Source: a virus
Lineage: Duplodnaviria; Heunggongvirae; Uroviricota; Caudoviricetes
IMG/VR virus record: IMGVR_UViG_2703718837_000001
Length of the DNA stretch: 49,704 nucleotides
Reading direction: 5' to 3' (one strand)
The notes under the pieces were generated by a model that was not told the DNA's origin, ran no database searches, and saw only the letters and a list, made by a program, of their open reading frames with translations. Numbering within the stretch: the stretch's first letter is position 1; each line of letters starts with the position of its first letter. Shown in pieces: positions 23,589-38,535 of the stretch. The translations under genes and the position numbers were made by a program.

Positions 23589-23599
23589 AAGGGATTTTT

Positions 23600-24291: not shown

Positions 24292-24310
24292 ATAATTCGG
24301 AAAAAGTAAT

Positions 24311-25564: not shown

Positions 25565-26776
25565 ATGATGATGAAACGCGATTACGGCGGTGTTGGCACC
25601 ATAGCTCTTCGTGCAAGCGCATTACTTAAGGCCATGAGTCAGGATATTGAAGATCAGCGCAAAGAGTTCAATCAGACCGAGTATTATCAGACGTTCACTC
25701 GTAACGCTGTGGCAAAGTTGCCGAAGCTGAGCCGCCGCATTGTGGAGCAGGCCATCAAAGAGATGGAAGATGATGGGTACCAGTTCAACAAGAAACAGGT
25801 CGGTAACGTTGAACAGTACGCGCTGACCATCCAGAACGTCATTGATATCTATGCCCACCGTAAGATCCCCAAATATCGCGACATTCACAAATCGCCTTAC
25901 GTTATTTTTGTCGTAAACCTGAAGGGTGGCGTATCCAAAACGGTTTCCACAGTCACGTTGGCGCACGCTCTGCGTGTGCATCAGGATTTACTGCGTCACG
26001 ATCTGCGCATTCTGGTAATTGACCTTGACCCTCAGGCATCCAGCACAATGTTCCTCGACCATACTCACAGTATTGGTTCCATCCTGGAAACCGCCGCGCA
26101 GGCGATGCTGAACGACCTGGACGCGGAGACGCTACGCAAAGAGGTGATTCGTCCGACCATCGTTCCTGGCGTAGACGTGATTCCAGCCTCTATCGACGAT
26201 GGCTTTGTTGCCAGCCAATGGAAAGAGCTGGTTGAAGAGCATCTTCCCGGACAAAATCAGTACGAAATCCTTCGACGCAATATCATTGATCGTGTTGCGG
26301 ATGATTATGACTTTATCTTTATTGATACCGGTCCACACCTGGATCCGTTCCTGCTCAACGGTCTGGCGGCCAGCGATTTGCTGCTTACCCCTACCCCACC
26401 AGCCCAGGTTGACTTCCACTCAACACTGAAATATCTCACCCGTCTGCCAGAAATGCTGGAGCAACTGGAGGAGGAAGGCGTAGAACCGCGTTTGAGCGCC
26501 AGCATTGGTTTTATGTCGAAGATGACCGGCAAGCGCGATCACGAGACATCACACAGCCTTGCGCGTGAGGTTTACGCCAGCAACATTCTGGACTCTTCTC
26601 TGCCTCGTCTGGATGGCTTTGAGCGATGTGGCGAGTCTTTCGACACCGTAATCAGTGCCAACCCGCAATCGTATCCAGGCAGTGCAGAGGCGCTGAAGAA
26701 GGCACGAACCGAGGCCGAGCGTTTCACTAAGGCTGTGTTTGATCGAATTGAGTTTGTTAGGGGTGAGGCGGCATGA
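25565..26776 (+). CDS. parA: Type Ia partition ATPase ParA
   Basis: Walker A NLKGGVSKT, DLDPQ, FIDTGPH, collinear with P1 ParA but diverged (P7-like as I recall). Three consecutive ATGs; the third (25571) is best spaced from GGAG. Confidence 0.92.
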   Translation: MMMKRDYGGVGTIALRASALLKAMSQDIEDQRKEFNQTEYYQTFTRNAVAKLPKLSRRIVEQAIKEMEDDGYQFNKKQVGNVEQYALTIQNVIDIYAHRKIPKYRDIHKSPYVIFVVNLKGGVSKTVSTVTLAHALRVHQDLLRHDLRILVIDLDPQASSTMFLDHTHSIGSILETAAQAMLNDLDAETLRKEVIRPTIVPGVDVIPASIDDGFVASQWKELVEEHLPGQNQYEILRRNIIDRVADDYDFIFIDTGPHLDPFLLNGLAASDLLLTPTPPAQVDFHSTLKYLTRLPEMLEQLEEEGVEPRLSASIGFMSKMTGKRDHETSHSLAREVYASNILDSSLPRLDGFERCGESFDTVISANPQSYPGSAEALKKARTEAERFTKAVFDRIEFVRGEAA

Positions 26777-27738
26777 AAAAAATAGTTTCCCGTGGACGAG
26801 TGCTGGGCAAGAATAGCTCCGAGTTTGCTCGCATGCTTGAAGGCAGTGAAGGCACCAAAACCTTTACCCTAAAATCTGGCCGCCAGGCTAAATTTTTGCT
26901 TACCGTTGTGCTGAGTGGTGAGATTGAGTCGCGCACGTTCGTTGACCCGGCAGTTAACGGCCGCGATCAGTCTCTGCTCACCCCTGAGTCGGTAAGCGAT
27001 ATTTCCCGCACCATTAAATTGCAACAGTTCTTCCCGGCTATCGGCCGTATGGTTGGGGAGCGCATTGAGGTATTGGACGGATCACGTCGCCGCGCTGCGT
27101 GTATCTTCAATGAAACGAAATTTGAGATTCTGGTGACGAAAGATGAGATCAGCCTGGCAGATGCCCGCCAGCTGGCCATTGATATCCAGACAGCCCGCGA
27201 ACACACCCTGCGCGAGCTGGGTAAACGCTTCGAGGTTATGTACGGCAAGAATATGACCAAAGAAGAGATCGCCCGAGCTGAGAACATCTCAAAGGCTAAA
27301 GTGACGCGAGCTTTCCAGGCTGCGGCGGTGCCGGATGAGATGATTGCTGTCTTCCCTGTTGCCAGCGATCTCGCCCTGCCTGATTACCAGTTGCTGCTCC
27401 AGATCTCCGAAGATGCTAACGCTAAAAACGTACCGATTGGAGAACTGGTTGATACGGTGCGCGAGCGAATTGCAGAGACTGAGGGCGCGAAAGAGGATAA
27501 AGCGAAGATACTGGCTATCTTCAAAGCGGAAAGCAAAAGCCTGAAACCTGCGCCGGTTAAATCTGTAGTGGTAGAGAAGCTGCGAGATTTCTCTGACCGA
27601 CGCCAGTACGCACGAAAGAAGACCGATCCGAAAAAACGGGTAGTCGCCTACGAGTTCTCCAGACTCCCATCTGAAGTGCAAACTGAAATTGACGAAGCAA
27701 TAAAAAAAATCATTGAGAAAATGTCCGCAGGAAAATAA
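26773..27738 (+). CDS. parB: Partition centromere-binding protein ParB
   Basis: 321 aa, ATGA overlap with parA. ParB/Spo0J-like core (IEVLDGSRRRAA) and HTH region. Confidence 0.9.
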   Translation: MKKIVSRGRVLGKNSSEFARMLEGSEGTKTFTLKSGRQAKFLLTVVLSGEIESRTFVDPAVNGRDQSLLTPESVSDISRTIKLQQFFPAIGRMVGERIEVLDGSRRRAACIFNETKFEILVTKDEISLADARQLAIDIQTAREHTLRELGKRFEVMYGKNMTKEEIARAENISKAKVTRAFQAAAVPDEMIAVFPVASDLALPDYQLLLQISEDANAKNVPIGELVDTVRERIAETEGAKEDKAKILAIFKAESKSLKPAPVKSVVVEKLRDFSDRRQYARKKTDPKKRVVAYEFSRLPSEVQTEIDEAIKKIIEKMSAGK

Positions 27739-27782
27739 ACCTGCTGGTGGGAGGTGGCGTTAGCCCCTCCCCTGCCTAAAAT

Positions 27783-27865
27783 GTCCCGCACCGATTTCAT
27801 TATTAACATTATGATTTATATATGTTTTTTAGAAAAATTTCAGACTGAAATTCCCACGGTTTAAC
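27783..27865 (+). promoter_or_regulatory. parS centromere (box A heptamers, box B-like hexamers, AT-rich IHF-type spacer)
   Basis: TCCCGCA-cc-GATTTCAT...AT-rich 40 bp...AATTTCAG-a-CTGAAAT-TCCCAC: same layout as remembered P1 parS but different box B letters. Confidence 0.6.
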
Positions 27866-27923
27866 GCCTGTATTACTCGTCCCCACTCCCCGCACAAAAA
27901 AATTAAAAAATTACTTTTCGCGA

Positions 27924-27952
27924 GAAAGTCAACAAGTGACTTTCAATAAAAT
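27924..27952 (+). promoter_or_regulatory. Late-promoter-like element upstream of gene 23
   Basis: GAAAGTCA-acaag-TGACTTTC inverted repeat, then 6 nt after GTGAC a TAAAAT -10 hexamer. Confidence 0.6.
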
Positions 27953-28003
27953 CTCTTCCGAAAAGGGATTCACACAAGTGCCTTGTGTTTAAGGAAGAGT
28001 AAC

Positions 28004-29710
28004 TTGAGTAACTTACGCGAATACCAGAATCGTATTGCAGATATCGCAAAACGCTCTAAAGCTGTGCTTGGCTGGGCAAGTACAGCACAGTTCGGTACTG
28101 ATAACCAATTCATCAAAGATGATGCCGCGCGTGCCGCATCTATCCTTGAAGCTGCACGCAAAGACCCGATTTTTGCAGGTATCTCTGATAATGCCACTGC
28201 TCAAATCGCTACAGCGTGGGCAAGTGCACTGGCTGACTACGCCGCAGCACATAAATCTATGCCGCGTCCGGAAATTCTGGCCTCCTGCCACCAGACGCTG
28301 GAAAACTGCCTGATTGAGTCCACCCGCAATAGCATGGATGCCACTAATAAAGCGATGCTGGAATCCGTCGCAGCAGAGATGATGAGCGTTTCTGACGGTG
28401 TTATGCGTCTGCCTTTATTCCTCGCGATGATCCTGCCTGTTCAGTTGGGGGCAGCTACCGCTGATGCGTGTACCTTCATTCCGGTTACGCGTGACCAGTC
28501 CGACATCTATGAAGTCTTTAACGTGGCAGGTTCCTCTTTTGGTTCTTATGCTGCTGGTGATGTTCTGGACATGCAATCCGTTGGTGTGTACAGCCAGTTA
28601 CGTCGCCGCTATGTGCTGGTGGCAAGCTCCGATGGCACTAGCAAAACCGCAACCTTCAAGATGGAAGACTTCGAAGGCCAGAATGTACCAATCCGAAAAG
28701 GTCGCACTAACATCTACGTTAACCGTATTAAGTCTGTTGTTGATAACGGTTCCGGCAGCCTACTTCACTCGTTTACTAATGCAGCTGGTGAGCAAATCAC
28801 TGTTACCTGCTCTCTGAACTACAACATTGGTCAGATTGCCCTGTCGTTCTCCAAAGCGCCGGATAAAGGCACTGAGATCGCAATTGAGACGGAAATCAAT
28901 ATTGAAGCCGCTCCTGAGCTGATCCCGCTGATCAACCACGAAATGAAGAAATACACCCTGTTCCCAAGCCAGTTCGTTATCGCGGCTGAGCACACGGTAC
29001 AGGCGGCGTATGAAGCACAGCGTGAATTTGGTCTGGACCTGGGTTCCCTACAGTTCCGCACCCTGAAGGAATACCTGTCTCATGAACAGGATATGCTGCG
29101 TCTTCGTATCATGATCTGGCGTACTCTTGCGACCGACACCTTTGACATCGCTCTGCCGGTTAACCAGTCCTTTGATGTATGGGCAACCATCATTCGTGGC
29201 AAATTCCAGACTGTATATCGCGACATTATTGAGCGCGTTAAATCTTCTGGTGCGATGGGGATGTTTGCTGGTGCTGATGCAGCATCTTTCTTCAAACAGT
29301 TGCCGAAGGATTTCTTCCAGCCAGCCGAAGACTATATCCAGACTCCGTATGTTCACTACATCGGTACCCTGTTCGGTAACGTGAAAGTGTACGAAGTACC
29401 TGCTGGTATTTGTAAGAACTTAACGACAGAGAACATTCAGTTCAGCTCGATGGATGTGCTGTGCTACGTCCGTGATGAAAATCCGGGTAAAGCAGGCTTC
29501 GTGACTGGTGATGCTGTCCCGGCCATCCCGTTCCAGCATCCGACCACTCCGGCGCTGGTCAACCGTACCACGCTGTGGGGTTCGGCTATCAACGATATGC
29601 ACCCACGCAACGGCGCTGATTACTTCACTCGTGTAACGCTGACAATGGCCAAAAAAGGCGGGCTTAACTTCATAAGCGGCGACACGATTGATGCCGGTGA
29701 CTCTGAGTAA
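28004..29710 (+). CDS. 23: Major head protein (P1 gene 23)
   Basis: Position next to parS as in P1. Long ORF (track start TTG 27983); TTG 28004 lies 7 nt after the RBS aaggaag. Synteny plus size; sequence family not independently verified. Confidence 0.75.
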   Translation: MSNLREYQNRIADIAKRSKAVLGWASTAQFGTDNQFIKDDAARAASILEAARKDPIFAGISDNATAQIATAWASALADYAAAHKSMPRPEILASCHQTLENCLIESTRNSMDATNKAMLESVAAEMMSVSDGVMRLPLFLAMILPVQLGAATADACTFIPVTRDQSDIYEVFNVAGSSFGSYAAGDVLDMQSVGVYSQLRRRYVLVASSDGTSKTATFKMEDFEGQNVPIRKGRTNIYVNRIKSVVDNGSGSLLHSFTNAAGEQITVTCSLNYNIGQIALSFSKAPDKGTEIAIETEINIEAAPELIPLINHEMKKYTLFPSQFVIAAEHTVQAAYEAQREFGLDLGSLQFRTLKEYLSHEQDMLRLRIMIWRTLATDTFDIALPVNQSFDVWATIIRGKFQTVYRDIIERVKSSGAMGMFAGADAASFFKQLPKDFFQPAEDYIQTPYVHYIGTLFGNVKVYEVPAGICKNLTTENIQFSSMDVLCYVRDENPGKAGFVTGDAVPAIPFQHPTTPALVNRTTLWGSAINDMHPRNGADYFTRVTLTMAKKGGLNFISGDTIDAGDSE

Positions 29711-29770
29711 TCAGGGGAAGTTCTCCGTTTAACATAGCGCCCCCGTGCGGGGCGCATAACAGGGAAAGTT

Positions 29771-31360
29771 ATGTCTCAATATTCAATTCAACAGTCATTA
29801 GGTAATGCATCCGGCGTCGCGGTTAGCCCGATCAATGCCGATGCGACGTTATCTACCGGTGTTGCATTAAATAGCAGCTTGTGGGCTGGTATTGGCGTAT
29901 TTGCGCGTGGCAAGCCGTTTACTGTTCTTGCGGTTACTGAGTCCAATTACGAAGATGTTCTCGGCGAACCGCTGAAGCCGTCTTCCGGCTCACAGTTCGA
30001 ACCAATTCGCCATGTATACGAAGCTATTCAGCAAACGTCTGGTTATGTTGTCCGTGCTGTTCCGGATGATGCGAAGTTCCCGATTATTATGTTCGATGAA
30101 TCAGGCGAACCGGCTTACAGTGCGTTGCCATACGGTTCTGAAATTGAACTTGATAGTGGCGAAGCCTTTGCTATCTACGTTGATGATGGTGATCCGTGTA
30201 TTTCACCTACCCGTGAGTTAACCATCGAAACGGCAACAGCGGACAGCGCGGGTAATGAACGCTTCCTCTTAAAACTGACCCAGACGACTTCGCTCGGCGT
30301 GGTAACGACCCTGGAGACACACACTGTGTCTTTGGCGGAAGAAGCGAAAGATGACATGGGCCGCTTGTGTTATCTGCCTACGGCTCTGGAAGCCCGTTCT
30401 AAATATCTGCGCGCGGTTGTTAATGAAGAGCTGATTTCGACGGCGAAAGTAACAAATAAAAAATCGCTGGCGTTCACTGGCGGTACCAACGGCGATCAGT
30501 CGAACATTTCCACTGCTGCTTACCTGCGTGCGGTGAAAGTGCTGAACAATGCGCCGTACATGTACACCGCTGTTCTCGGCCTGGGTTGCTATGACAATGC
30601 GGCGATCACTGCGTTAGGTAATATCTGTTCTGATCGCCTGATTGATGGCTTCTTTGATGTCAAACCGACATTGACGTACACGGAAGCGATCTCTGCTGTT
30701 GAAGATACCGGTTTACTTGGTACCGATTATGTAAGCTGTGCTGTCTATCATTTCCCGTTCTCCTGCAAAGACAAATGGACCCAATCCCGCGTGGTCTTCG
30801 GTCTGTCTGGCGCGGCGTATGCGGCGAAAGCTCGTGGCGTCAAGAAAAACTCCGATGTCGGCGGTTGGCATTACTCACCGGCTGGTGAAGAACGTGCCGT
30901 CATTGCTCGTGCATCACTTCAGCCGCTGTATCCTGAAGACACCCCGGACGAAGAAGCTATGGTCAAGGGCCGACTCAATAAAGTATCTGTAGGTACTTCG
31001 GGCCAGATGATCATCGATGATGCTTTAACTTGCTGCACGCAGGACAACTATCTGCATTTCCAGCACGTCCCATCCCTGATGAACGCAATCAGCCGTTTCT
31101 TTGTCCAGTTAGCCCGACAGATGAAGCATAACCCGGACGGCATTACTGAGTATGGCCTGACTAAAGGGATGACCAAACTTTTGGATCGCTTTGTCGCCTC
31201 CGGCGCTCTGGTGGCTCCTCGTGATCCTGATGCTGACGGTACAGAACCGTATGTGCTGAAAGTTACGCAGGCGGAATTCGATAAATGGGAAGTAGTCTGG
31301 GCCTGCTGCCCGACTGGCGTAGCCCGTCGTATCCAGGGCGTACCGCTGCTTATTAAGTAA
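29771..31360 (+). CDS. 22: Contractile tail sheath protein (P1 gene 22)
   Basis: 529 aa, directly after 23 as in P1. Size and composition typical of myovirus sheath. Confidence 0.7.
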   Translation: MSQYSIQQSLGNASGVAVSPINADATLSTGVALNSSLWAGIGVFARGKPFTVLAVTESNYEDVLGEPLKPSSGSQFEPIRHVYEAIQQTSGYVVRAVPDDAKFPIIMFDESGEPAYSALPYGSEIELDSGEAFAIYVDDGDPCISPTRELTIETATADSAGNERFLLKLTQTTSLGVVTTLETHTVSLAEEAKDDMGRLCYLPTALEARSKYLRAVVNEELISTAKVTNKKSLAFTGGTNGDQSNISTAAYLRAVKVLNNAPYMYTAVLGLGCYDNAAITALGNICSDRLIDGFFDVKPTLTYTEAISAVEDTGLLGTDYVSCAVYHFPFSCKDKWTQSRVVFGLSGAAYAAKARGVKKNSDVGGWHYSPAGEERAVIARASLQPLYPEDTPDEEAMVKGRLNKVSVGTSGQMIIDDALTCCTQDNYLHFQHVPSLMNAISRFFVQLARQMKHNPDGITEYGLTKGMTKLLDRFVASGALVAPRDPDADGTEPYVLKVTQAEFDKWEVVWACCPTGVARRIQGVPLLIK

Positions 31361-31369
31361 GGGAATACA

Positions 31370-32185
31370 ATGAGCAAAAACTTTTTTCAATCCGGGGCAT
31401 TTTTGGGGAATGGACTGTCCCGTTTCGCTTTGAACTCTGATCCTGTGCAGCTGATGGAGTCTGCCCGAGCAAGCGCCGAACCGCCAACAGATCCGGTTAT
31501 TAATAATAATCCGGAACCGGCGGCACAGACTAACGATAACGTTCCATCTGACCCGGCTCCTGAGCAAATCCTGGAAGGGAAAGACGGTAAAGAATGGACC
31601 GTCGAACAGGCGCACCAGATGATTCTGGAAGCCGCAAATCGAAGTGCTATGCAGAATGCGTTGAGTGATGCGGCCGACGCCGTTTTCGCCTGGGCTGATA
31701 GCGGTGATCTGACTTTCGACTCCCTTGATGGTTTCGTTCAGGCTATCGCTGGTATCTCTGATGACGACGACTCCGAAGTTACAGAAGAACAGGACGATGC
31801 CTATAACGAAGCATGGGCAAATGTTGCTGACTTCCTCGCAGTATGCGGTGTAGATGATGACCTGATCGAAGCACTGGCTGACGATGAAGACGACGACGCA
31901 GCTGCTGATGTTGGTGCCTCTATCGCTGGTTTAGATAGCGACGACCGCGACGAACTGGAAGCGGCGTTTGTTGTTGCTGGCACTTCTGATGAAATGCTGA
32001 CTGAAGCATTTAAGAAGGTTGTTCGTAACGGTGAGATCAAACTCATCCGTAAACGCCTGCGTAAAAAACGTCTGACTGCGGCTCAAAAATCGGCGCTGAA
32101 AAAAGCGCGTCGAAAAGCCCAGACCGGCGCGGCAAAACTTGCCCGCAAAAAGTCAATGAAACTGCGCCGTAAGCGCCTTGGCTAA
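31370..32185 (+). CDS. Hyper-acidic protein with a poly-basic C-terminal tail (position of P1 gene 21)
   Basis: 271 aa. Central DDDDSEVTEEQDD...DDEDDDAAAD; last 50 aa IRKRLRKKRLTAAQKSALKKARRKAQTGAAKLARKKSMKLRRKRLG. Confidence 0.7.
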   Translation: MSKNFFQSGAFLGNGLSRFALNSDPVQLMESARASAEPPTDPVINNNPEPAAQTNDNVPSDPAPEQILEGKDGKEWTVEQAHQMILEAANRSAMQNALSDAADAVFAWADSGDLTFDSLDGFVQAIAGISDDDDSEVTEEQDDAYNEAWANVADFLAVCGVDDDLIEALADDEDDDAAADVGASIAGLDSDDRDELEAAFVVAGTSDEMLTEAFKKVVRNGEIKLIRKRLRKKRLTAAQKSALKKARRKAQTGAAKLARKKSMKLRRKRLG

Positions 32186-32220
32186 AGGAGGAGGCCGGAG
32201 AACTCCGGCCTTTAACTTGA

Positions 32221-32802
32221 ATGGCACCTATTCCTTATGGGGTTTACAGCCAGGCTGACGGTGTATCGCCATTTCTGAAAGTTACTTTAACGAACTCTCA
32301 GTACCAGGTTACCGGATATATCAGCCAGGGGGCGGCAATGAACATGGCCCAGAATTGGGAAGCGCCGTTTACCGGTATGTCCATGGGATCTGTTGCTGGT
32401 GCTTTCAGTGGTTTTGCGCAGGTTGGTACTGAAACAACGTCGGTTGCCCGTTGGAACAGCTTAATGGTTTGGGAAGGGGGAACACCGCCGACTTTCACGC
32501 TGCCAGTAACTTTCATCGCTTTGTTTGACCCATTCACGGAGGTTTCAGGAGCTATCGCCGCATTGTCAGCGATGATTAGCCCGGAACTTAAAGATGCCAG
32601 TATTGGTGGTCGAATCCCGGAGCGTGTGACGCTAAACATTGGTCGCCGGATCAACATCATTGATGTCGCTATCCAGGACATAAGTTTCGATCTCGATGCG
32701 ACCAGGGACAGCAATGGGCATTTCCTGAAAAACACCGTCAACCTCCAGTTGACCGGTTCTTCGATATATAACAGCTCCGATATTGTTCGGGCGTTCCAGT
32801 AA
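32221..32802 (+). CDS. Morphogenesis protein (position of P1 pmgG)
   Basis: 193-aa ORF in the late operon, following a hairpin at 32193-32210. Confidence 0.6.
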   Translation: MAPIPYGVYSQADGVSPFLKVTLTNSQYQVTGYISQGAAMNMAQNWEAPFTGMSMGSVAGAFSGFAQVGTETTSVARWNSLMVWEGGTPPTFTLPVTFIALFDPFTEVSGAIAALSAMISPELKDASIGGRIPERVTLNIGRRINIIDVAIQDISFDLDATRDSNGHFLKNTVNLQLTGSSIYNSSDIVRAFQ

Positions 32803-32813
32803 AAGGATTTTAT

Positions 32814-33323
32814 ATGGGGCACAATAACACTAAGGGAAACCGTAAATTTATTAAGGGCCGCTATACTGCCAACGCGGCCAAAGGCGAACGACTGGTATCT
32901 TCTGAATTCCAGCTCACTTTTGCAGGCCATGAAGATATCAGCGTACTGGTTCGCACGTCGCAAATTCCTGAAATGACCCGCGAGGATGTGGAGGACTATG
33001 GTCCGAATGGTGTGAAGTTCAACCAGCACGGTCCAATCCGTAACTCCGGGGAAATCCAGGTCCAGTGCGTGGAGACTATCGAAGGTGATATTCTTCAGTT
33101 CATTAAAGATCGCATTGCGGCGAAGGACTATGTTGATATCACGATGGCTGCGACCCCTGAATCCAAATCTTCCGGGGTTAACGCCGTGACAAAAGCTGCT
33201 ACAACAATTGAAATGTTGGACTGCAAAATCTACAGTGATGCAATCGACTTTAGTACCGAAGATGTGACTGCCGCTGTGCGTCCGTCACTTCGTATCGTCT
33301 ACAACTGGATTGATTGGGATTAA
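32814..33323 (+). CDS. Structural protein (position of P1 bplB)
   Basis: 169-aa ORF with RBS aaaggattttatATG, followed by terminator aaagctcc-ttcg-ggagctttttt (about 33340-33366). Confidence 0.6.
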   Translation: MGHNNTKGNRKFIKGRYTANAAKGERLVSSEFQLTFAGHEDISVLVRTSQIPEMTREDVEDYGPNGVKFNQHGPIRNSGEIQVQCVETIEGDILQFIKDRIAAKDYVDITMAATPESKSSGVNAVTKAATTIEMLDCKIYSDAIDFSTEDVTAAVRPSLRIVYNWIDWD

Positions 33324-33406
33324 GAGTCATCCCTTGTATTTTAAAGCTCCTTCGGGAGCTTTTTTGTGCTTAAATCATGTCAATATAGCGAAATTTTGAG
33401 CATATT

Positions 33407-33703
33407 ATGGAAATTGATTTTTCATACTCTCCTGAAACGATAGAACGAAGATTCGAAATAATTGGATGCAAAACTATTTCCGAGGAGCATTATTGGATTC
33501 TCTATGATGCCAATACATGGTTATGTGCCTTAGCAGAATGTCAGCCATCGTTATGTGTAGGGGAGGGGGCTTTTCGACATAAGGTGCTGGCTACACTTGA
33601 AGTGAACACGTTACGATATTGGTGTGTAGAAATACTTAGTGATAACAAAGAATTGCACTTATTATTGCTGAATAAGTGTGCTTCTCTGCGCAGAAAAGCA
33701 TGA
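33407..33703 (+). CDS. Small Cys-rich protein (position of P1 pmgF)
   Basis: 98-aa ORF, low GC, followed by a 13-bp-stem hairpin plus T-run (33831-33868). Confidence 0.5.
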   Translation: MEIDFSYSPETIERRFEIIGCKTISEEHYWILYDANTWLCALAECQPSLCVGEGAFRHKVLATLEVNTLRYWCVEILSDNKELHLLLLNKCASLRRKA

Positions 33704-33868
33704 GAAAACCCAACCGCTCTCCCGGAATTATCAGAAGAATATGTGCGGAAAGTTATAGCTAGCTATTGAAAAGCTAAAGTAGATCGGTTAGATTTGCATT
33801 ACTCATCTACCATGTGTAGAAAGAGCGATCGAACCCGATACATAGCAATATGTGTCGGGTTCAGCTTT

Positions 33869-34333
33869 TTATGTCCCAAGTGCTCTTTTTCTGCTTTGTT
33901 TGAGTGTTCTGATTTTACTGTCATAGGTTACAACATAGGCTGTTTTGAGAAGCCAATAGTCTCTACGTGCGGATAGCACAACAACGTAGTTTTCACACTC
34001 ATTCCAGATTACCCACTCTTCAGTTGGTCCTCGTCTTTCAGACCAACATGATATATCGCAATGGTTATAATTCCTTATCATATGCGCGATCCAGCGAATT
34101 CGCTTGCACCGTTCAAGATCGGGTATACGTTCTTCTTCTTTTTTTCCCTCTGATACTAAATGCCAAAATCCGAACTCTTTCCCATCATATTCCGGTGAAT
34201 AACGTAATCGAACAGGGAGACCCTTAAACGTTATATTAGAGATTAAAATGTCTTCTCTGACAATATCATATACATCGTCTATATACTCTTGCCAACTTCC
34301 ATTGAAGTACAATAAATCTGGCATTTGAAGCAT
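33869..34333 (-). CDS. Unknown protein, translationally coupled partner of the DUF3800-like gene (position of P1 rlfB)
   Basis: The track ORF starts at 34348, but ATG 34333 overlaps the upstream TGA by 1 nt (cgcTGATGctt). About 154 aa. Motif CKRIRWIAHMIRN...YVVVLSARRDYWLLKTAYVV. Confidence 0.6.
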   Translation of the reverse strand: MLQMPDLLYFNGSWQEYIDDVYDIVREDILISNITFKGLPVRLRYSPEYDGKEFGFWHLVSEGKKEEERIPDLERCKRIRWIAHMIRNYNHCDISCWSERRGPTEEWVIWNECENYVVVLSARRDYWLLKTAYVVTYDSKIRTLKQSRKRALGT

Positions 34334-35037
34334 CAGCGAGCCTCCCACACGAAAATATTAAATTTACTTTCTGTTGGAAGAGTGCTTTTTAGTAACTCCC
34401 TGTTTGTATGTGATTTTATCCTGTTTATGACTTGGATTTTTCCCGCGTTGCTATTCATTCCTCGATGAACGTAGCCTAATGCACCAATGAAAAGATCCGT
34501 TAGCTGCAATTGTTGCACTTCATGAGATCGTATATGTTGAATTCTGTTTATCGACTCATGATTGTAATCATAGCGATCATTGTGAAGAACCCCTCTTAAT
34601 TTCTCAATTTTTTCAATACCTAAAGTATCTTTTATATCTAGGTAGATATTGTATGTGTTGTTACTTTCTATTATGTTTTTTAAGACATAAAAAAACATCT
34701 TATAATAGAAAGTATTATGATCTTGATGGAATCGAGCATGGTCCAGTTGCTCTTTATCAGGAACAACAACACCTCTAAAGCGCAATGCTGGGTTGCTGAA
34801 GAAGTAATCTACGACATCTAAGTAAAATTCAACTTTGGACGCAGATACTTTAGTCCACTTGATTTCGAAATCAGGTTTTAGATTGTGTTTTAATTTTAAT
34901 TCCTTGATGTCTCTAGCAATTTTTTTTGTGATAGTACCAGGACACCAAAGCGCACCCAATACCATGACTTTATTATGATCATTTAGTAGGTGACAGGATT
35001 CATCGCAGAATACATTAAATGTTCTTCGGTTCAACAT
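34333..35037 (-). CDS. DUF3800-like protein (position of P1 rlfA)
   Basis: 234 aa. N-terminal FNVFCDESCH (the DES signature I associate with DUF3800) and C-terminal QLQLTDLFIGALGY. About 33% GC. Confidence 0.6.
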   Translation of the reverse strand: MLNRRTFNVFCDESCHLLNDHNKVMVLGALWCPGTITKKIARDIKELKLKHNLKPDFEIKWTKVSASKVEFYLDVVDYFFSNPALRFRGVVVPDKEQLDHARFHQDHNTFYYKMFFYVLKNIIESNNTYNIYLDIKDTLGIEKIEKLRGVLHNDRYDYNHESINRIQHIRSHEVQQLQLTDLFIGALGYVHRGMNSNAGKIQVINRIKSHTNRELLKSTLPTESKFNIFVWEAR

Positions 35038-35185
35038 GTTAACTCCACTTATTGTTAGGTAGAATTGTCCGTTAGTTGTTTATTAATTGCAATAATGGGA
35101 CGTCCAGTTTTGGCAACTGTGTCCTCTTACCAAGACGCCTATGAGTTTGCCTCATGGCAAACTAGAAGTGTTGAAAGCATGCATG

Positions 35186-35202
35186 GTTCTAATTAGAGCA
35201 AT
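35186..35202 (-). promoter_or_regulatory. C1-operator-like half-conserved site between repL and the DUF3800-like pair
   Basis: Reverse complement = ATTGCTCTAATTAGAAC: the first 11 nt are identical to the operator consensus, the rest diverges. Confidence 0.4.
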
Positions 35203-35205
35203 TCA

Positions 35206-36051
35206 TTAACCTCTGAATCCTGCCGGTATACCCCATTGTTCGTTATCTTTATTTTTGGCTAAAACCGCATTAAGAGCTTCGTTTACCGTCATGCAATGCG
35301 GCAGATTATCGAAGTTTGATACCCCGCCAATATCAGGAGAACGCTTGTTCTTCAGGTAAGCATATTTCCGCGCTGCCGCCTCTACTTTCTGCTTGAACTC
35401 ATGTTTTTGAGCGCGTTTTTTGGATAACCGCAGATTGTCAGCCTTTGCTTTTGCCTCAGCGATCCATGAAGTCAATTTTTTGAGTCTGGTCGTTCCGGCA
35501 CCGCCGGAAACTGATCTTTTTGTTTTTTTAACTTGTGACTTCTTATTCTTTATTGCCACGTCATCCTGACAGGGGGAGGGGGTATCATTTTGACATGGGG
35601 GTGTGGATAAAAAATTAAATAAAGCCAATGTCTTAGCGAGAACAGCTTTAACCTTGGTTGCCGCTGAAGAGATCTTTAATTTGCTTTCAATCAGCGCATT
35701 TTTGGCTTGTTGTGCGAAGGCCAAAAAGGATGGTGTAAACCGGTACAGGTTAGCGCGACGTTCACGGTGATCGCCGATAACAATCTCTACAGACAGGATT
35801 CCTTTGTTTACAGCTTCACGGAATGCACGAACGACGGTTGATTGGCTATAACCAGTTTCTGCCGCGATCAGGCGGTGAGGCTTGTGAATGAAGTATTCAC
35901 TGGTTGTTGCCGCGAGATTTGCACATTGCGACAGGATATGCCCGGCGCTACGGGATAGACCGGAGTGTGTTACAAAGCAGGCCAATTCATAGCCAGAAAA
36001 AGTAAAATCGCTCATCGTTATACAGCTCAGGAAAGTGACTTTAGCCAGCAT
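35206..36051 (-). CDS. repL: Lytic replication initiator RepL (oriL expected inside the gene)
   Basis: 281-aa ORF directly downstream of kilA, as in the P1 kilA-repL operon. HTH-like STVVRAFREAVNKGIL. Confidence 0.8.
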   Translation of the reverse strand: MLAKVTFLSCITMSDFTFSGYELACFVTHSGLSRSAGHILSQCANLAATTSEYFIHKPHRLIAAETGYSQSTVVRAFREAVNKGILSVEIVIGDHRERRANLYRFTPSFLAFAQQAKNALIESKLKISSAATKVKAVLAKTLALFNFLSTPPCQNDTPSPCQDDVAIKNKKSQVKKTKRSVSGGAGTTRLKKLTSWIAEAKAKADNLRLSKKRAQKHEFKQKVEAAARKYAYLKNKRSPDIGGVSNFDNLPHCMTVNEALNAVLAKNKDNEQWGIPAGFRG

Positions 36052-36080
36052 TACAATGCTGGTGGTTCTTACTACGTCTG

Positions 36081-36881
36081 TTAGTGCGTTGCCGCGACAG
36101 GTACCAGCACACCAGCATCAAGCAATCGCTTCATCAGCCACTGCTGACCTTTGCCGGTTATACGAGTCGTGAAAGAAATCCTGCTTCCATTGCTTGTATC
36201 GATCACGGTTTCTTTAAGGGTGAAATACCCACGGGATATGTATTCTTGTTTGGGGACGTTCCTGCGTTCACCGGTTGCGATCAGAATTCCGTTATCACGC
36301 AACCAGGTGAAGAGATAGTTTTGGCCCAGGCCGAGCACTTTGGCATAGTTGCCGATTAGAACCCCGCTGGCGGTAGCAACGCGTTCGGCGAATTCGACTT
36401 TAGGTGCATCCATCAGCATTTTTTGCTCCAGCCGTTGCTTTTGCTCTGCCAGGTCAGCAGCCAAACGGAGAGCTTCTGGGAGACTCTGCGGAATAGCAGG
36501 TTGTAATCTTCCAGCTCGATAGTCGATAAATGTCTGGTTTACCTTCAGCCGAAACGCGGGAGAAATCCAACCTGCGTACTCCACTGCGAGCAATTCATGG
36601 GCAAAAGTGCCGCCGCCACGGCCTTCGAACGAAACTATGCAATTCTGCATAGTTTCTTTTTCAAGCTCTTCGATGAGCTGTTTAGCTGACAGCGTTCTTA
36701 GCCATTGAGCTGGCGCTTTATGGGCACCGAGTCCGCTCGCTCTGTGTAGAGCATTAAGGTTGTAACGGCCAGCGCGGTCGGTCGTAATTTCAACACCACA
36801 AATAACGGGCAGAGTGGTTGAAGGATCGACATTTTGATGAAGGTTTGATATATTCATATCCGCATTGAATGTTTGTTGCAT
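36081..36881 (-). CDS. kilA: KilA (KilA-N domain plus KilAC/ANT C-terminal domain)
   Basis: 266 aa. KilA-N signature (YNLNALHRASG...PAQWLR). The C-terminal 135 aa are paralogous to the Ant C-terminus. Confidence 0.85.
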   Translation of the reverse strand: MQQTFNADMNISNLHQNVDPSTTLPVICGVEITTDRAGRYNLNALHRASGLGAHKAPAQWLRTLSAKQLIEELEKETMQNCIVSFEGRGGGTFAHELLAVEYAGWISPAFRLKVNQTFIDYRAGRLQPAIPQSLPEALRLAADLAEQKQRLEQKMLMDAPKVEFAERVATASGVLIGNYAKVLGLGQNYLFTWLRDNGILIATGERRNVPKQEYISRGYFTLKETVIDTSNGSRISFTTRITGKGQQWLMKRLLDAGVLVPVAATH

Positions 36882-36951
36882 TTTTTCTCCAAATTTGCAT
36901 CAACCTTCAATCACCAGCTCGAAATGGTGATTTCTTTGTACTCAGAAAACA

Positions 36952-36968
36952 AAAATTATTAGAGCAAA
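36952..36968 (-). promoter_or_regulatory. C1 operator Op53-equivalent at the kilA-repL promoter
   Basis: Reverse complement = TTTGCTCTAATAATTTT, about 70 nt upstream of the kilA ATG. Confidence 0.7.
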
Positions 36969-37012
36969 TTTTTCTGACTCGATCCAGATCGGGTTGGTCG
37001 ATCTGCTCAGAA

Positions 37013-37041
37013 ACCTGCCAGTTCGCTGGCAGGTTTTTTTG
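37013..37041 (+). terminator. Plus-strand rho-independent terminator (fits the antisense transcript reported for the P1 P53 region)
   Basis: AACCTGCCAG-ttcg-CTGGCAGGTT followed by a T-run. No plus-strand gene ends here. Confidence 0.65.
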
Positions 37042-37080
37042 TATAAGGCGTTTTTCAATGTGGATTTGTGGCTGGCTAAA

Positions 37081-37112
37081 ACGAAAAAGGCCACAGGTTT
37101 TACCCTGTGGCC
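37081..37112 (-). terminator. Minus-strand rho-independent terminator after the 38-aa ORF (and ant read-through)
   Basis: Minus strand: GGCCACAGG-gtaaaa-CCTGTGGCC followed by TTTTTCGTTTT. Confidence 0.7.
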
Positions 37113-37166
37113 TGTTCGGGCGCAACGCGCTGCTGTTACACTGCGAACTAACGCCCTTCAATATTG

Positions 37167-37283
37167 TTATGCAATGTGGAGAAGTGAGGCAATCACTGAT
37201 GCCAACACAGAACTTGAAGCTCCGATGATGACAGGAACAATGATGTTGGTCACAATCCACTTGCAAGCTTTTTGAAGAGTCAT
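37167..37283 (-). CDS. 38-aa hydrophobic peptide (candidate type I toxin / small membrane protein)
   Basis: Hand-found ORF: MTLQKACKWIVTNIIVPVIIGASSSVLASVIASLLHIA*. GGAG 8 nt upstream, single predicted TM, own terminator 55 nt downstream. Below the ORF-track size cut-off. Confidence 0.45.
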   Translation of the reverse strand: MTLQKACKWIVTNIIVPVIIGASSSVLASVIASLLHIA

Positions 37284-37342
37284 TACGAAGCTCCGCATAC
37301 TTGCAACAGCAACTGCTTGCGGCTATCCTCTTGTTGTTCAGA

Positions 37343-37386
37343 CATAAGGAATGCCCTCGCTGGTTGCCTCCATGCAACGTTGTGGC
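37343..37386 (+). terminator. Plus-strand terminator antisense to the 5' leader of the 38-aa ORF (candidate antisense sRNA 3' end)
   Basis: CCCTCGC...(inner GTTGC-ctccat-GCAAC)...GCGAGGG followed by T6. Confidence 0.55.
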
Positions 37387-37521
37387 GAGGGTTTTTTCTG
37401 TCTGGAGGCTACGCATCCAGGAGTTCATAACCCCCGCATAACGTTGCGCCTCCCCTGAAAAACAGGGTTGGGCATATCGTACACATGCCTGTAATTTATG
37501 GCAAATCCTGGTCTGAATACG

Positions 37522-38535
37522 TTAAGACAAGGACGCCACTGGTTTTAACAAACCAGCATCAAGTAGCTTGCGAGTTAACCACTGCTGGCCTTTACCCGTT
37601 AATTGGGGCGTCAGCCGTATCTGGTAGCCATTTTCATCATCCAGCACCACTTCTTTCACCGTGAAATACCCGGCGTTGATGTACTGTTGGCGCGGTACGT
37701 TTTTGCGCGCTCCAAAAGCCATGAGAATGCCATTCTGGCGCAACCATGAGAAAAGGGCGTTTTGCTTAAGTCCAACGACCTTTGCAAAGTTCCCGATCAG
37801 GATTCCATTGGCCACTGATACCCGGTCGGCAAAATCGACTTTAGGGGCTGCGGCCACCAGCTGCTGTTCCAACTGCATTTTCTGTTCTGCCAACTCGGCA
37901 GCCAGGCGTAGAGCTTCTGGTAATGTTTGGGGGATCGATGGGGCAGGGGAGTTTGCCTGCTGCAATTCTTCCAGTTTGTCGATCAGCGAACGGCGGACCG
38001 CTTTCGATTCGCGCGCGGCGACTCGCAGGGCTTGTTTGTAGGTCATGGTTATAATATCTATTTCTGCGCCGTTTTTTTGACCTACGAAAATTTCGTAGGT
38101 TTCTCCTTCAAGCTCATCCTTAACTCTGGCAATGAAATCATTGTTGCGAACTGGTTTTTCGCTACATAATTTCCGTGCCTCATTGACCATCTTCAACAAT
38201 GTTTGGCTGTCGATTGTGTCTCCGGTGTTGGGGATGACATTCAGGGCTGGTGCTGGTTTTTCAACATTTAAATTATTACCGGTCATTCTATGTGCCTCCT
38301 TTCTCATTTCTGCTGCCACTGTTGCGTAACGTAGACGTCCTTGTTCAATCAAATAATCCCTGATCTCGGCTATCAGTAGCCTGTTGATCACAGCCTTATC
38401 TGTTCGGGTATAAAAACGTCTGGTTATCATGAAATAGTTGGCAATTGCGCCGGGGATCTCCCGTGTCGGCATACAGGTTGTATGCAAAGCGATCGCTTCG
38501 GCTATTTCATTACGGGTGACGAGAGGTTTTTTCAT
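37522..38535 (-). CDS. ant: Antirepressor Ant (immI)
   Basis: 337 aa, directly after icd with a 4-nt overlap. C-terminal KilAC domain (PEALRLAAELAEQK...GKGQQWL). Confidence 0.85.
   Translation of the reverse strand: MKKPLVTRNEIAEAIALHTTCMPTREIPGAIANYFMITRRFYTRTDKAVINRLLIAEIRDYLIEQGRLRYATVAAEMRKEAHRMTGNNLNVEKPAPALNVIPNTGDTIDSQTLLKMVNEARKLCSEKPVRNNDFIARVKDELEGETYEIFVGQKNGAEIDIITMTYKQALRVAARESKAVRRSLIDKLEELQQANSPAPSIPQTLPEALRLAAELAEQKMQLEQQLVAAAPKVDFADRVSVANGILIGNFAKVVGLKQNALFSWLRQNGILMAFGARKNVPRQQYINAGYFTVKEVVLDDENGYQIRLTPQLTGKGQQWLTRKLLDAGLLKPVASLS

What the first reader, a model, noticed from the sequence alone, without database searches (positions are those of the whole stretch)
37167..37386. 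Candidate type I toxin-antitoxin: 38-aa hydrophobic ORF with an antisense-oriented terminator over its leader
Between ant and kilA, a minus-strand mini-ORF (MTLQKACKWIVTNIIVPVIIGASSSVLASVIASLLHIA) has a GGAG RBS and its own terminator (37081-37112). On the opposite strand, a strong terminator (37343-37386) faces away from any gene. It sits where an sRNA starting near the ORF start (possible TTGCAA-17-TACGAA at 37261-37289) would end, giving about 90 nt complementary to the toxin 5' UTR. This is the hok/sok or ldr/rdl type of layout. It would provide plasmid-prophage addiction or abortive-infection capacity inside the immunity region.
Basis: inference. Interest (0 to 1): 0.55.

Follow-up and report, generated by a model that had tools for sequence, protein, structure and literature searches.

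The report
Divergent Ldr/Rdl toxin-antitoxin cassette in P1-like prophage
A 0.5-kb insert between the ant and kilA genes of this P1-like plasmid prophage is a divergent copy of the E. coli "long direct repeat" (ldr/rdl) RNA-controlled toxin-antitoxin module, with a remodelled 38-residue membrane peptide, and no paper in the searchable library places this family on a plasmid or phage.

Summary
The 38-aa hydrophobic ORF (37283..37167, minus strand), its GGAG ribosome-binding site, its terminator (37113..37078) and the opposing plus-strand terminator (about 37353-37397) are all present.

The whole segment 37041-37534 is absent from P1, P7 and SJ46. It is homologous end to end to the LDR (ldr/rdl) type I toxin-antitoxin repeats of Enterobacteriaceae. 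A profile of the four K-12 repeats gives E 2e-18, and a 36-unit family profile gives E 9e-36.

Promoter boxes, the 5' hairpin, the 5'-3' pairing, the helix that sequesters the toxin start site, the Rdl stem-loop and the terminator are all kept, several through compensatory base changes. By homology the antitoxin RNA is about 62 nt (37336-37397, promoter TTGCAA-17-TATCCT at 37301-37329).

The peptide keeps the family's PxxxG motif in register. It lacks the Trp plus charged C-terminal signature and is missed by Pfam and NCBIfam.

The cassette occurs at 98.5% identity or more in 21 of 510 P1-like plasmids. The ORF is always intact, and two independent IS insertions cut the toxin from its promoter. 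Toxicity, expression and a role in plasmid addiction are inferred, not shown. I rate it a new variant of a known kind, of moderate interest.

The parts
37041..37534 (.). Accessory cassette, an LDR-like unit. It replaces 16 bp of P1 between the ant stop codon and the P53as/ant terminator, and it also supplies the last 4 codons of ant.
   Evidence: P1 matches the window up to 37040 and again from 37535. There is no phage-database match, even with distant blastn. nhmmer with LDR profiles covers 37493..37076.
37476..37504 (-). Predicted toxin-mRNA promoter: -35 TTGCCA (37504..37499), a 17-nt spacer, and -10 TACGAT (37481..37476). The start site is near A37469.
   Evidence: The promoter scan scores it 9/12. 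The -10 aligns with the family-conserved TAGAAT/TAGGAT box. In some relatives IS1 is inserted between the two hexamers.
37078..37469 (-). Predicted toxin mRNA of about 390 nt.
   Evidence: MFE is -164.5 kcal/mol, z = -7.7. It keeps 55 of the 70 base pairs of the family consensus structure, against 20-32 for slid controls, with 4 compensatory double changes of its own.
37453..37467 (-). 5'-terminal hairpin of the toxin mRNA (CCCUG/CAGGG).
   Evidence: Present in the MFE structure. It is the equivalent of the family hairpin GCCGG/CCGG, with covarying pairs.
37441..37450 (-). 5' arm (GGCGCAACGU) of a long-range 5'-3' helix, analogous to fold-back inhibition in hok.
   Evidence: It pairs with 37128..37119 in the MFE with unpaired probability 0.00. 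The homologous GGCGC/GCGCC pairing is kept in 36-37 of 37 family units.
37119..37128 (-). 3' arm (GCGUUGCGCC) of the 5'-3' helix, in the 3' UTR.
37301..37329 (+). Predicted promoter of the Rdl-like antitoxin RNA: -35 TTGCAA (37301-06), 17 nt, -10 TATCCT (37324-29).
   Evidence: It aligns with K-12 TTGTAA-17-TATTCT, which lies 7 nt upstream of the annotated rdlD 5' end. AAGAATAGCCGC and GTTG..TTGCAA are among the most conserved blocks of the family.
37336..37397 (+). Rdl-like antisense antitoxin RNA of about 62 nt: a 16-nt single-stranded 5' tail, a long stem-loop and a U tract.
   Evidence: Rfam rdlD matches full length at 21.1 bits, E 0.088, below the gathering score of 50. A family CM built without the cassette scores 24.2 bits, E 1.3e-4, and is the only hit in the window. 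The fold is -22 kcal/mol. A compensatory U-A pair sits in the otherwise invariant stem.
37283..37345 (-). 20-codon leader ORF (MSEQQEDSRKQLLLQVCGAS). Its SD (GAGGG, 37358..37354) and AUG lie inside the sRNA target, and its UAA overlaps the toxin AUG (UAAUG).
   Evidence: The coupling is inferred by analogy with mok/hok and the proposed ldrX. An ORF in this position is not conserved across the family.
37167..37283 (-). Toxin ORF of 38 aa plus a stop codon, with its SD GGAG at 37294..37291.
   Evidence: GRAVY is 1.44, with one TM segment from about W9 to A38 and PxxxG at P17-G21. The start codon and P..G are in register with Ldr. The ORF is intact in every copy examined.
37129..37161 (-). 3'-UTR segment predicted to sequester the toxin SD, AUG and first codons, and the region upstream of them.
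   Evidence: MFE helices: 37313..37302 x 37140..37129, 37297..37289 x 37149..37142, 37284..37281 x 37153..37150, and 37279..37272 x 37161..37154. The homologous family helix (alignment columns 222-231 x 410-419) shows covariation, including two double changes specific to the cassette.
37078..37113 (-). Intrinsic terminator of the toxin mRNA.
   Evidence: Terminator scan. It is homologous to the LDR terminator, with a compensatory G-C to A-U change.

Best explanation
The segment 37041-37534 is a horizontally acquired, divergent member of the LDR (ldr/rdl) type I toxin-antitoxin repeats. It sits as an accessory cassette between ant and the P53/kilA-repL lytic replicon of a P1-like plasmid prophage.

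Proposed mechanism:
- A minus-strand promoter just after the ant stop codon makes a roughly 390-nt, very tightly folded mRNA. Its 5' end pairs with its 3' UTR, and the toxin Shine-Dalgarno and AUG are buried by the 3' UTR, so the full-length transcript is translationally inert.
- A constitutive plus-strand promoter (37301-29) makes a roughly 62-nt Rdl-like RNA (37336-37397). This RNA is perfectly complementary to the 5' UTR and covers the SD and AUG of a 20-codon leader ORF whose stop codon overlaps the toxin AUG.
- Binding of the sRNA therefore blocks leader translation and, through coupling, toxin translation.
- If the sRNA decays faster than the mRNA, for example after loss of the plasmid prophage, the 38-aa peptide is made. 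It inserts in the inner membrane as a single helix. The helix carries PxxxG and a face of small residues (G21/S25/S29/S33) that could favour oligomerisation. The cell stops growing or dies.
- The most likely benefit to the element is post-segregational killing (addiction) of a one-copy plasmid prophage.

Shown: homology of the whole unit to LDR, conservation of the RNA architecture, an intact ORF in all copies, and absence from P1.

Inferred: transcription, sRNA control through the leader ORF, toxicity and the addiction role.
For: Homology:
- The alignment with K-12 LDR-A to LDR-D is collinear from the -10 box to the terminator.
- The K-12-only profile hits 37469..37076 at E 2.4e-18.
- A 36-unit profile built without the cassette gives E 9.1e-36. 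With the columns used to fish out the loci masked, it still gives E 9.5e-26.

Geometry matches ldrD/rdlD:
- The sRNA 5' end lies about 50 nt upstream of the toxin AUG (54 nt here, 49 nt in K-12).
- The sRNA is 62 nt here and 64 nt in K-12.

RNA structure:
- The mRNA fold has z = -7.7.
- The family consensus structure has 97% of cells paired, against 34-54% for slid controls, with 18 covarying pairs and 0 of 500 shuffles reaching it.
- The cassette keeps 55 of 70 pairs and has its own compensatory changes in the SD-sequestering helix, the Rdl stem and the terminator.
- The Rdl CM hit is unique in the window and full length.

Peptide:
- It is hydrophobic and has PxxxG in register with Ldr. The motif is described for Fst/Ldr toxins in PMC7472228.

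Population evidence:
- The 38 aa are identical in 18 of 21 plasmids.
- Copies with an uninterrupted cassette carry only synonymous changes, at three sites.
- The two amino-acid changes (I10V, K8E) occur only in copies already disrupted by IS elements.
- Two independent IS insertions separate the toxin ORF from its promoter. IS1 lies between the -35 and -10 boxes. A second IS lies 2 nt from the rdl -35 box and leaves the sRNA gene intact.

Literature:
- Ldr toxins kill on overexpression and RdlD counteracts them. Control through a leader ORF (ldrX) was proposed by Gerdes and Wagner (PMC4147584, PMC8594479).
Against: - There are no expression or toxicity data.
- The peptide lacks the Ldr/Fst signature of a Trp after the TM helix followed by a charged C-terminus (PMC2887945). 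It has only 4 of the 10 residues invariant in my Ldr alignment. It gets no Pfam or NCBIfam hit, although LdrD scores 6.5e-27 in the same search. BLASTP against LdrD finds nothing, and hhalign gives only 20% probability.
- Rfam rdlD scores 21 bits against a threshold of 50.
- All known copies are at least 98.5% identical, so conservation of the ORF is weak evidence and the synonymous/non-synonymous pattern rests on 5 events.
- A leader ORF abutting the toxin AUG is not a conserved family feature, and Rdl's mode of action is unresolved even in E. coli.
- The toxin -10 box (TACGAT) is weaker than the family's TAGAAT.
- The IS insertions could be neutral.
Confidence: 0.75

Rival explanations
1. 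Decayed LDR relic. The RNA scaffold is still recognisable, but the peptide has drifted out of the Ldr family and is no longer toxic. On this view the cassette is a neutral passenger, or is useful only as a pair of terminators that insulate ant from kilA/repL.
For: The peptide has lost W11, D13, W30 and the RNRK tail, and it fails Pfam and NCBIfam. The cassette is rare, in 21 of 510 P1-like plasmids. About a quarter of copies carry IS insertions.
Against: Promoter boxes, the SD, the start codon, the ORF and both terminators are all intact. The cassette lineage made compensatory changes that preserve the helices hiding the toxin start site. The ORF remains a clean, strongly hydrophobic TM helix with PxxxG. 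No frameshift or stop occurs in any copy, and uninterrupted copies show only synonymous change. Another non-canonical peptide class sits on otherwise intact LDR scaffolds in Kluyvera and Atlantibacter, so a departure from the Ldr signature does not by itself mean decay.
Confidence: 0.15
2. The module is active, but its job is not plasmid addiction. One option is abortive infection or exclusion of other phages. Another is a membrane-damaging function tied to the phage's own induction, because transcription reading through from ant enters the cassette without an intervening terminator.
For: No terminator lies between the ant stop codon (37522) and the toxin promoter. On the minus strand the Rdl hairpin lacks a U tract. 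hok/sok is reported to exclude T4 (cited in PMC4147584). P1 itself already has phd/doc for addiction (established knowledge, not checked in this window).
Against: Nothing in the sequence distinguishes this from addiction. The architecture of an inert, probably stable mRNA and a short antisense RNA is the classic post-segregational design. ant transcription is normally shut off by c4 in lysogens.
Confidence: 0.25
3. It is a hok/sok-family locus, the other family the first reader named.
For: There is a weak Rfam sok match at 37296-37435 (-), 16.3 bits, E 0.28. The logic is similar: a leader ORF, 5'-3' pairing and an sRNA over the leader.
Against: The score is far below the gathering score of 59. 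The peptide gets no Hok/Gef Pfam hit. The unit aligns end to end with LDR instead.
Confidence: 0.02
4. The real gene is the plus-strand 'hypothetical protein' that PGAP annotates across this region in some plasmids (equivalent to window 36877-37275). On this view the small ORF is chance.
For: PGAP calls it in several records. Plus-strand ORFs of 93 and 119 aa exist in the window.
Against: It starts inside the kilA start and P53/Op53 control region, which is non-coding in P1. A 1-bp indel at 37146 in several copies frameshifts it and leaves the small ORF untouched. It runs antisense through a unit with strong LDR homology.
Confidence: 0.02

Closest known systems
ldr/rdl (LDR, long direct repeat) type I toxin-antitoxin loci of E. 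coli K-12 (ldrA-D / rdlA-D) and other Enterobacteriaceae
   Same: The unit size is the same, about 0.45-0.5 kb, and the parts come in the same order. Homologous parts are the toxin -10 box, the 5' hairpin, the GAGGCGCAAyGUU..GCGGGGG block, the 5'-3' pairing, the Rdl promoter, stem-loop and U tract, the SD, the ATGAC start, P-x-x-x-G in register, the 3'-UTR helix and the terminator. [quoted passage not shown]
   Different: - DNA identity to any unit is only about 45-49%.
- The Rdl-like RNA is 49-58% identical to family Rdls, against a within-family median of 81%.
- The peptide is 38 aa rather than 35, lacks WHDLAAP, the conserved Trp and the RNRK tail, and carries its two basic residues at the N-terminus instead.
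- A distinct 20-codon leader ORF abuts the toxin AUG.
- It is located on a phage-plasmid rather than a chromosome. The literature I read describes ldr/rdl as chromosomal, without plasmid homologues and without evidence of horizontal transfer (PMC2887945, PMC7472228).
hok/mok/sok of plasmid R1
   Same: The predicted logic is shared. The full-length mRNA is inert and locked by 5'-3' pairing. Toxin translation is coupled to an overlapping leader ORF. A short antisense RNA blocks the leader. Both are plasmid-borne, so post-segregational killing is the expected role. Chromosomal hok copies are inactivated by nearby IS elements, as some copies are here.
   Different: There is no sequence or family relationship. 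The Hok peptide is about 50 aa with a periplasmic domain.
Non-canonical 30-aa peptides on LDR scaffolds in Kluyvera, Atlantibacter and an uncultured Enterobacteriaceae (MTFREALVIAVVTSIIGPIVVALVCHFCNI and relatives), found here
   Same: The RNA scaffold is LDR. The peptide starts MT[FL], has charged residues only near the N-terminus and no charged C-terminal tail, and is not recognised by Pfam or NCBIfam.
   Different: They are chromosomal, often tandem, and 30 aa rather than 38. Their Pro is displaced by one position. Their scaffold is much closer to canonical LDR than the cassette's.
par (Fst/RNA II) of Enterococcus plasmid pAD1, from the Fst/Ldr superfamily
   Same: A small single-TM toxin with a PxxxG motif, on a plasmid, with a post-segregational killing role (PMC7472228).
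   Different: The antisense RNA overlaps the 3' end and direct repeats, the regulation differs, and the host is Gram-positive. There is no nucleotide homology.

Membership tests
LDR (ldr/rdl) type I TA repeat, nucleotide/RNA level | Significant collinear nucleotide homology to the roughly 0.5-kb LDR unit | tested here: met
   The K-12 LDR-A to LDR-D profile gives E 2.4e-18. The 36-unit profile built without the cassette gives E 9.1e-36, and E 9.5e-26 with the fishing-motif columns masked. It is the only hit in the window.
LDR (ldr/rdl) type I TA repeat, nucleotide/RNA level | A cis-encoded sRNA of about 60-66 nt, antisense to the toxin 5' UTR, lying 5' of the ORF and fully inside the mRNA | tested here: met
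   By homology, the promoter and start site align with rdlD. The family CM hit at 37336-37397 is full length, E 1.3e-4. Transcription itself was not tested.
Rfam RF01813 rdlD | Score at or above the curated gathering threshold of 50 bits | tested here: not met
   21.1 bits, E 0.088 in a 561-nt search and 0.86 in 5.5 kb. The match covers model positions 1-66 in full.
LDR (ldr/rdl) type I TA repeat, nucleotide/RNA level | The conserved toxin-mRNA secondary structure: 5' hairpin, 5'-3' helix, GCGGGGG/CCCCCGC helix, upstream-of-SD/3'-UTR helix and terminator | tested here: met
   55 of 70 consensus pairs are kept, against 20-32 for slid controls, with 4 compensatory double changes. The cassette's own MFE contains the same helices.
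Ldr toxin (Pfam PF13940 Ldr_toxin) | A match to the family HMM | tested here: not met
   No hit at E up to 10, while LdrD scores 6.5e-27 in the same search. NCBIfam gives no hit.
Fst/Ldr toxin superfamily | The signature of a conserved Trp after the TM helix followed by a cluster of charged residues at the C-terminus (PMC2887945) | tested here: not met
   The C-terminus is ...ASLLHIA, with no Trp after the TM segment and no charged residues. The only charges are K5 and K8 at the N-terminus.
Fst/Ldr toxin superfamily | A PxxxG motif inside the TM helix (PMC7472228) | tested here: met
   P17-V-I-I-G21 sits at the same positions as P17..G21 of Ldr.
Type I toxin-antitoxin system (general) | The small protein is toxic when expressed, and an antisense RNA prevents its synthesis | not testable with these tools
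   Only indirect support: a hydrophobic single-TM peptide, IS insertions that uncouple the toxin from its promoter while sparing the sRNA gene, and amino-acid changes found only in disrupted copies.
hok/sok | A Hok/Gef peptide domain and a match to the sok/hok RNA family | tested here: not met
   No Pfam hit. Rfam sok scores 16.3 bits against 59.

The most novel reading that the evidence does not exclude
The LDR RNA scaffold may be a portable regulatory chassis whose toxin payload has been remodelled several times: the canonical 35-aa Ldr, a 30-aa class in Kluyvera and Atlantibacter, and this 38-aa peptide. One version then escaped the chromosome onto a phage-plasmid.

There it sits directly downstream of ant with no terminator between them. 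Derepression of the immI operon, on induction or superinfection, would then send read-through transcripts into the cassette and override the Rdl-like RNA. That would couple membrane damage to the phage's lysis-lysogeny decision, in addition to plain plasmid addiction.
Probability: 0.12. Interest if true: 0.7.

Novelty: new variant of a known kind. Interest (0 to 1): 0.45.

Why it matters
ldr/rdl is one of the classic chromosomal type I toxin-antitoxin families. Its biological role and its mechanism of sRNA control are still unsettled. The family has been described as lacking plasmid homologues and as not spreading horizontally (PMC2887945).

A diverged copy on P1-like phage-plasmids is a natural counter-example. 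It is also a convenient test case.
- Post-segregational killing can be assayed directly on a one-copy replicon.
- The neat leader-ORF/toxin overlap (UAAUG) makes the long-proposed ldrX-type coupling testable.
- The remodelled peptide shows which parts of Ldr toxins are dispensable. PxxxG is kept, while the Trp and charged tail are lost.

Practically, the module is invisible to current annotation. Neither the peptide nor the sRNA is called in any of the records examined, and a spurious opposite-strand ORF is annotated instead. Surveys of toxin-antitoxin or defence cargo on phage-plasmids would therefore miss it.

Tried and rejected
- Protein searches with the peptide were uninformative. The 5.8-billion-protein search returned one near-identical entry.
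- A degenerate back-translated pattern (NIIVPVIIG) in IMG/VR found only identical cassettes.
- blastn in distant mode against E. coli genomes did not connect the cassette to the chromosomal LDRs at E 1e-5 or better. The homology was seen only by reading the K-12 ldrD locus next to the cassette and then confirmed with profiles.
- A metagenome scan for intermediates, using the CCCTCGC variant of the LDR motif, gave three more identical cassettes and four canonical Klebsiella-type LDRs. It found no intermediate, so no dN/dS test with real power was possible.
- The 43-aa form of the ORF is rejected, because its ATG is GTG in most copies.
- hok/sok membership is rejected.
- A conserved ldrX-like leader was looked for across about 100 units. 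The commonest upstream ORF starts inside GAGGCGCAAUGUUGCGGGGG and has a variable end. In the cassette it is reduced to MRGL-stop, so it was not used as evidence.
- A literature search found no paper linking Ldr/Rdl with P1-like elements or phage-plasmids. The library is incomplete.
Full report
**Context.** The window is a P1-like plasmid prophage. On the minus strand it carries, in P1 order, the following genes.
- The c4 antisense RNA and its a1/b1 targets (Rfam, 38801-39007).
- ant (37522-38535, Pfam ANT).
- kilA (36081-36881, KilA-N + ANT) and repL (35206-36051).

The 159 bp upstream of kilA (36882-37040) are 95-96% identical to P1, P7 and SJ46. In P1 this stretch holds operator Op53, promoter P53, the antisense promoter P53as and a terminator.

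**The observation.**
- The 38-aa ORF MTLQKACKWIVTNIIVPVIIGASSSVLASVIASLLHIA runs 37283..37167 (-). GGAG lies 7 nt upstream of its ATG.
- A minus-strand terminator lies at 37113..37078.
- A plus-strand hairpin plus U6 ends at 37397, at -22 kcal/mol.
- The suggested promoter TTGCAA-17-TACGAA exists at 37261-37289 but has a poor -10 box.

**The region is an insertion.** P1 matches the window up to 37040 and again from 37535. Sixteen base pairs of P1 are replaced by 494 bp here, including the last four ant codons. The 481-bp core has no match in 50,697 phage records, even with sensitive blastn. It is present at 98.5-99.6% identity in the following.
- 21 plasmids, mostly E. albertii, plus E. coli and one Salmonella.
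- 10 complete E. coli genomes.
- 7 IMG/VR contigs and 3 metagenome contigs.

Of 510 PLSDB plasmids that carry the P1 kilA/P53 segment, 21 have the cassette. No record annotates the small ORF or an sRNA. Some annotate a plus-strand 'hypothetical protein' across it.

**What it is.** Rfam gave a weak but full-length match of 37336-37397 (+) to rdlD, the antitoxin RNA of the E. coli ldrD locus (21 bits, below threshold). Reading the K-12 ldrD/rdlD locus next to the cassette showed block-by-block similarity. An alignment with LDR-A to LDR-D is collinear from the toxin -10 box to the terminator.

A profile of the four K-12 repeats, chosen by annotation only, hits the window once, at 37469..37076 (-), E 2.4e-18. 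I then scanned one genome per species with a motif shared by the cassette and K-12 (GAGGCGCAAYGTT...AAAACCCNCGC). This retrieved about 100 LDR units from Escherichia, Shigella, Salmonella, Citrobacter, Kluyvera, Klebsiella, Pseudocitrobacter and Atlantibacter.
- A profile of 36 representatives without the cassette hits 37493..37076 at E 9.1e-36.
- With the motif columns removed from both profile and target it still gives E 9.5e-26.

The cassette is therefore a member of the LDR family at the nucleotide level. It is also an outlier, only about 45-49% identical to any unit.

**Anatomy by homology.** The parts are as follows.
- The toxin promoter is TTGCCA-17-TACGAT (37504..37476). Its -10 box aligns with the family's TAGAAT.
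- The Rdl-like promoter is TTGCAA(37301-06)-17-TATCCT(37324-29). It aligns with K-12 TTGTAA-17-TATTCT.
- G37336 aligns with the annotated 5' end of rdlD. The sRNA is therefore about 62 nt (37336-37397) and begins 54 nt upstream of the toxin AUG. In K-12 the values are 64 nt and 49 nt.
- A covariance model of Rdl built from 36 units without the cassette finds exactly this interval, full length, at 24.2 bits and E 1.3e-4. The next best hit in 49.7 kb has E 1.3.
- In the otherwise invariant Rdl stem GCCCCCG/CGGGGGU, the cassette has a compensatory U-A pair. The same double change recurs independently in a Klebsiella-type LDR from metagenomes.

**The toxin mRNA.** The predicted 390-nt transcript folds far better than shuffled controls: -164.5 against -119 +/- 5.9 kcal/mol, z = -7.7. 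The minimum-energy fold has four notable features.
- A 5' hairpin.
- A 10-bp 5'-3' helix (37450..41 with 37128..19).
- A GCGGGGGUU/AACCCUCGC helix.
- A long interrupted helix in which the 3' UTR covers the toxin SD, AUG and first codons. The unpaired probability of the AUG is 0.01.

The RNAalifold consensus of 37 units contains the same helices. Across the family 97.1% of cells are paired, against 34-54% when partners are slid by 1-3 columns. Eighteen pairs show changes on both sides, and 0 of 500 shuffles reach the observed values. The cassette keeps 55 of the 70 consensus pairs, against 20-32 for slid controls. It has four compensatory double changes of its own, two of them in the helix upstream of the SD. 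This argues that the cassette lineage has been under selection to keep the mRNA architecture.

**Leader ORF.** Inside the sRNA target lie a GAGGG (37358..54) and an AUG (37345). They open a 20-codon ORF whose UAA overlaps the toxin AUG (UAAUG at 37285..81). This is the mok/hok arrangement, and it resembles what Gerdes and Wagner proposed for ldrX (PMC4147584, PMC8594479). In the family at large, upstream ORFs are heterogeneous and none is consistently placed like this. The coupling is therefore an inference specific to this cassette.

**The peptide.** It is very hydrophobic (GRAVY 1.44), with one TM segment from about W9 to the C-terminus and two lysines at the N-terminus. It has a P17xxxG21 motif and a helix face of small residues: G21, S25, A28/S29 and A32/S33.
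- The start codon and the Pro and Gly are in register with Ldr at both the DNA and the protein level.
- The peptide lacks W11, D13, W30 and the RNRK tail, having only 4 of the 10 residues invariant in my Ldr alignment.
- It gets no Pfam or NCBIfam hit, while LdrD scores 6.5e-27.
- BLASTP finds nothing, and hhalign gives 25% identity over residues 1-24 with 20% probability.
- The published superfamily signature, a Trp followed by a charged C-terminus (PMC2887945), is not met. The PxxxG motif (PMC7472228) is met.

Another non-canonical class (30 aa, MTFREALVIAVVTSIIGPIVVALVCHFCNI and relatives) sits on intact LDR scaffolds in Kluyvera, Atlantibacter and an uncultured enterobacterium. It is also missed by Pfam and NCBIfam.

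**Population evidence.** The ORF is intact in every copy. Eighteen of 21 plasmids encode the identical 38 aa. Uninterrupted copies differ only at three synonymous sites.

Two independent IS insertions occur.
- IS1 lies at 37491/92, between the toxin -35 and -10 boxes.
- A 1.1-kb IS lies at about 37299/300. It cuts the SD and ORF away from the 5' UTR and sits 2 nt from the intact rdl -35 box.

The only amino-acid changes (I10V, K8E) are in IS-disrupted copies. This fits a toxin that is under constraint while expressed and is sometimes silenced. The events are few and the copies are related.

Two further polymorphisms bear on which ORF is real. A 1-bp indel at 37146 in several copies frameshifts the annotated plus-strand ORF but lies in the toxin 3' UTR. 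The T-to-C change at 37298 removes the upstream ATG of the 43-aa form in most copies.

**Mechanism and role.** The best-supported reading is an active, divergent Ldr/Rdl-type module that works as described under the best explanation. Post-segregational killing of the single-copy plasmid prophage is its most likely use. The Rdl-like RNA is only 49-58% identical to chromosomal Rdls. This would limit neutralisation by the host's own rdl genes, although the shared GC-rich stem means cross-talk is not excluded.

Alternatives are a decayed relic, a role in phage exclusion, or coupling to ant read-through. No terminator separates ant from the cassette.

**Novelty.** I found no paper linking Ldr/Rdl to P1-like elements or phage-plasmids. 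The reviews I read describe the family as chromosomal, without plasmid homologues and without horizontal transfer (PMC2887945, PMC7472228). I rate it a new variant of a known kind: same RNA chassis and logic, remodelled toxin, new genetic location.

Noticed in passing
L016:851-1722, L025:5520-5939, L038:5917-6336, L051:2928-3347, L061:1831-2250 (Kluyvera, Atlantibacter, uncultured Enterobacteriaceae): Otherwise typical LDR units encode a second, non-canonical 30-aa peptide class (for example MTFREALVIAVVTSIIGPIVVALVCHFCNI and MTFKQAFWLAVLTSIIGPIVVALIRYFFSF). These lack the WHDLAAP block and the charged tail and get no Pfam or NCBIfam hit. The toxin payload on the LDR scaffold is more variable than the family models suggest.
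   Followed up: partly
relatives of window 37296-37301 and 37491/37492 (L002, L085, L086; L005, L006, L009, L085): Two different IS elements are inserted in the 0.5-kb cassette in about a quarter of its copies. Both lie upstream of the toxin ORF and neither is inside it. One plasmid (L085) carries both. This is reminiscent of the IS-inactivated chromosomal hok loci.
   Followed up: partly
window 36877-37275 (+), equivalent to L001:2837-3235: PGAP annotates a plus-strand 'hypothetical protein' (WP_063099948.1) spanning the kilA start, the P53/Op53 control region and the antisense of the toxin gene. A 1-bp indel polymorphism at 37146 frameshifts it, so it is probably an annotation artefact.
   Followed up: partly
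window 38913-38994 (-): A sub-threshold Rfam match to the Salmonella IsrK sRNA (43.7 bits against 50) overlaps the c4 a1/b1 target region upstream of c4.
   Followed up: no
window 39366-39887 (+): A 173-aa predicted lipoprotein (signal LSGC, glycine-zipper region, weak TraT similarity at E 1.5e-4) lies divergent from the c4 promoter region, where P1 has simABC. It may be a different superinfection-exclusion or surface-exclusion cargo.
   Followed up: no
L003 (E. coli ST2747 chromosome NZ_CP007393.1, 2225904-2232384): The same ant-cassette-kilA-repL segment is deposited as part of a chromosome, next to a truncated lambda-like gpJ gene. This is either an integrated or rearranged P1-like element or an assembly artefact.
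   Followed up: no
L001:534-689: In one carrier plasmid (NZ_CP020936.1) a hokD-type type I toxin gene and an IS4-family element lie just downstream of repL. That element would carry two different type I toxin genes. The window itself has rlfA/rlfB-like genes at this position and no hok.
   Followed up: partly
L057 (503-bp contig labelled Bacillus sp. EB106-08-02-XG196): An enterobacterial LDR motif occurs on a very short, low-coverage contig of a Bacillus assembly. It is most likely contamination.
   Followed up: no
window 37425-37439 (-): In most LDR units an ORF starts inside the invariant GAGGCGCAAUGUUGCGGGGG block (MLRGL...), with a variable end. In the cassette a 2-nt insertion shifts the AUG and leaves a 4-codon mini-ORF (MRGL-stop) behind a strong GGAGG. 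Its significance for regulation is unknown.
   Followed up: partly
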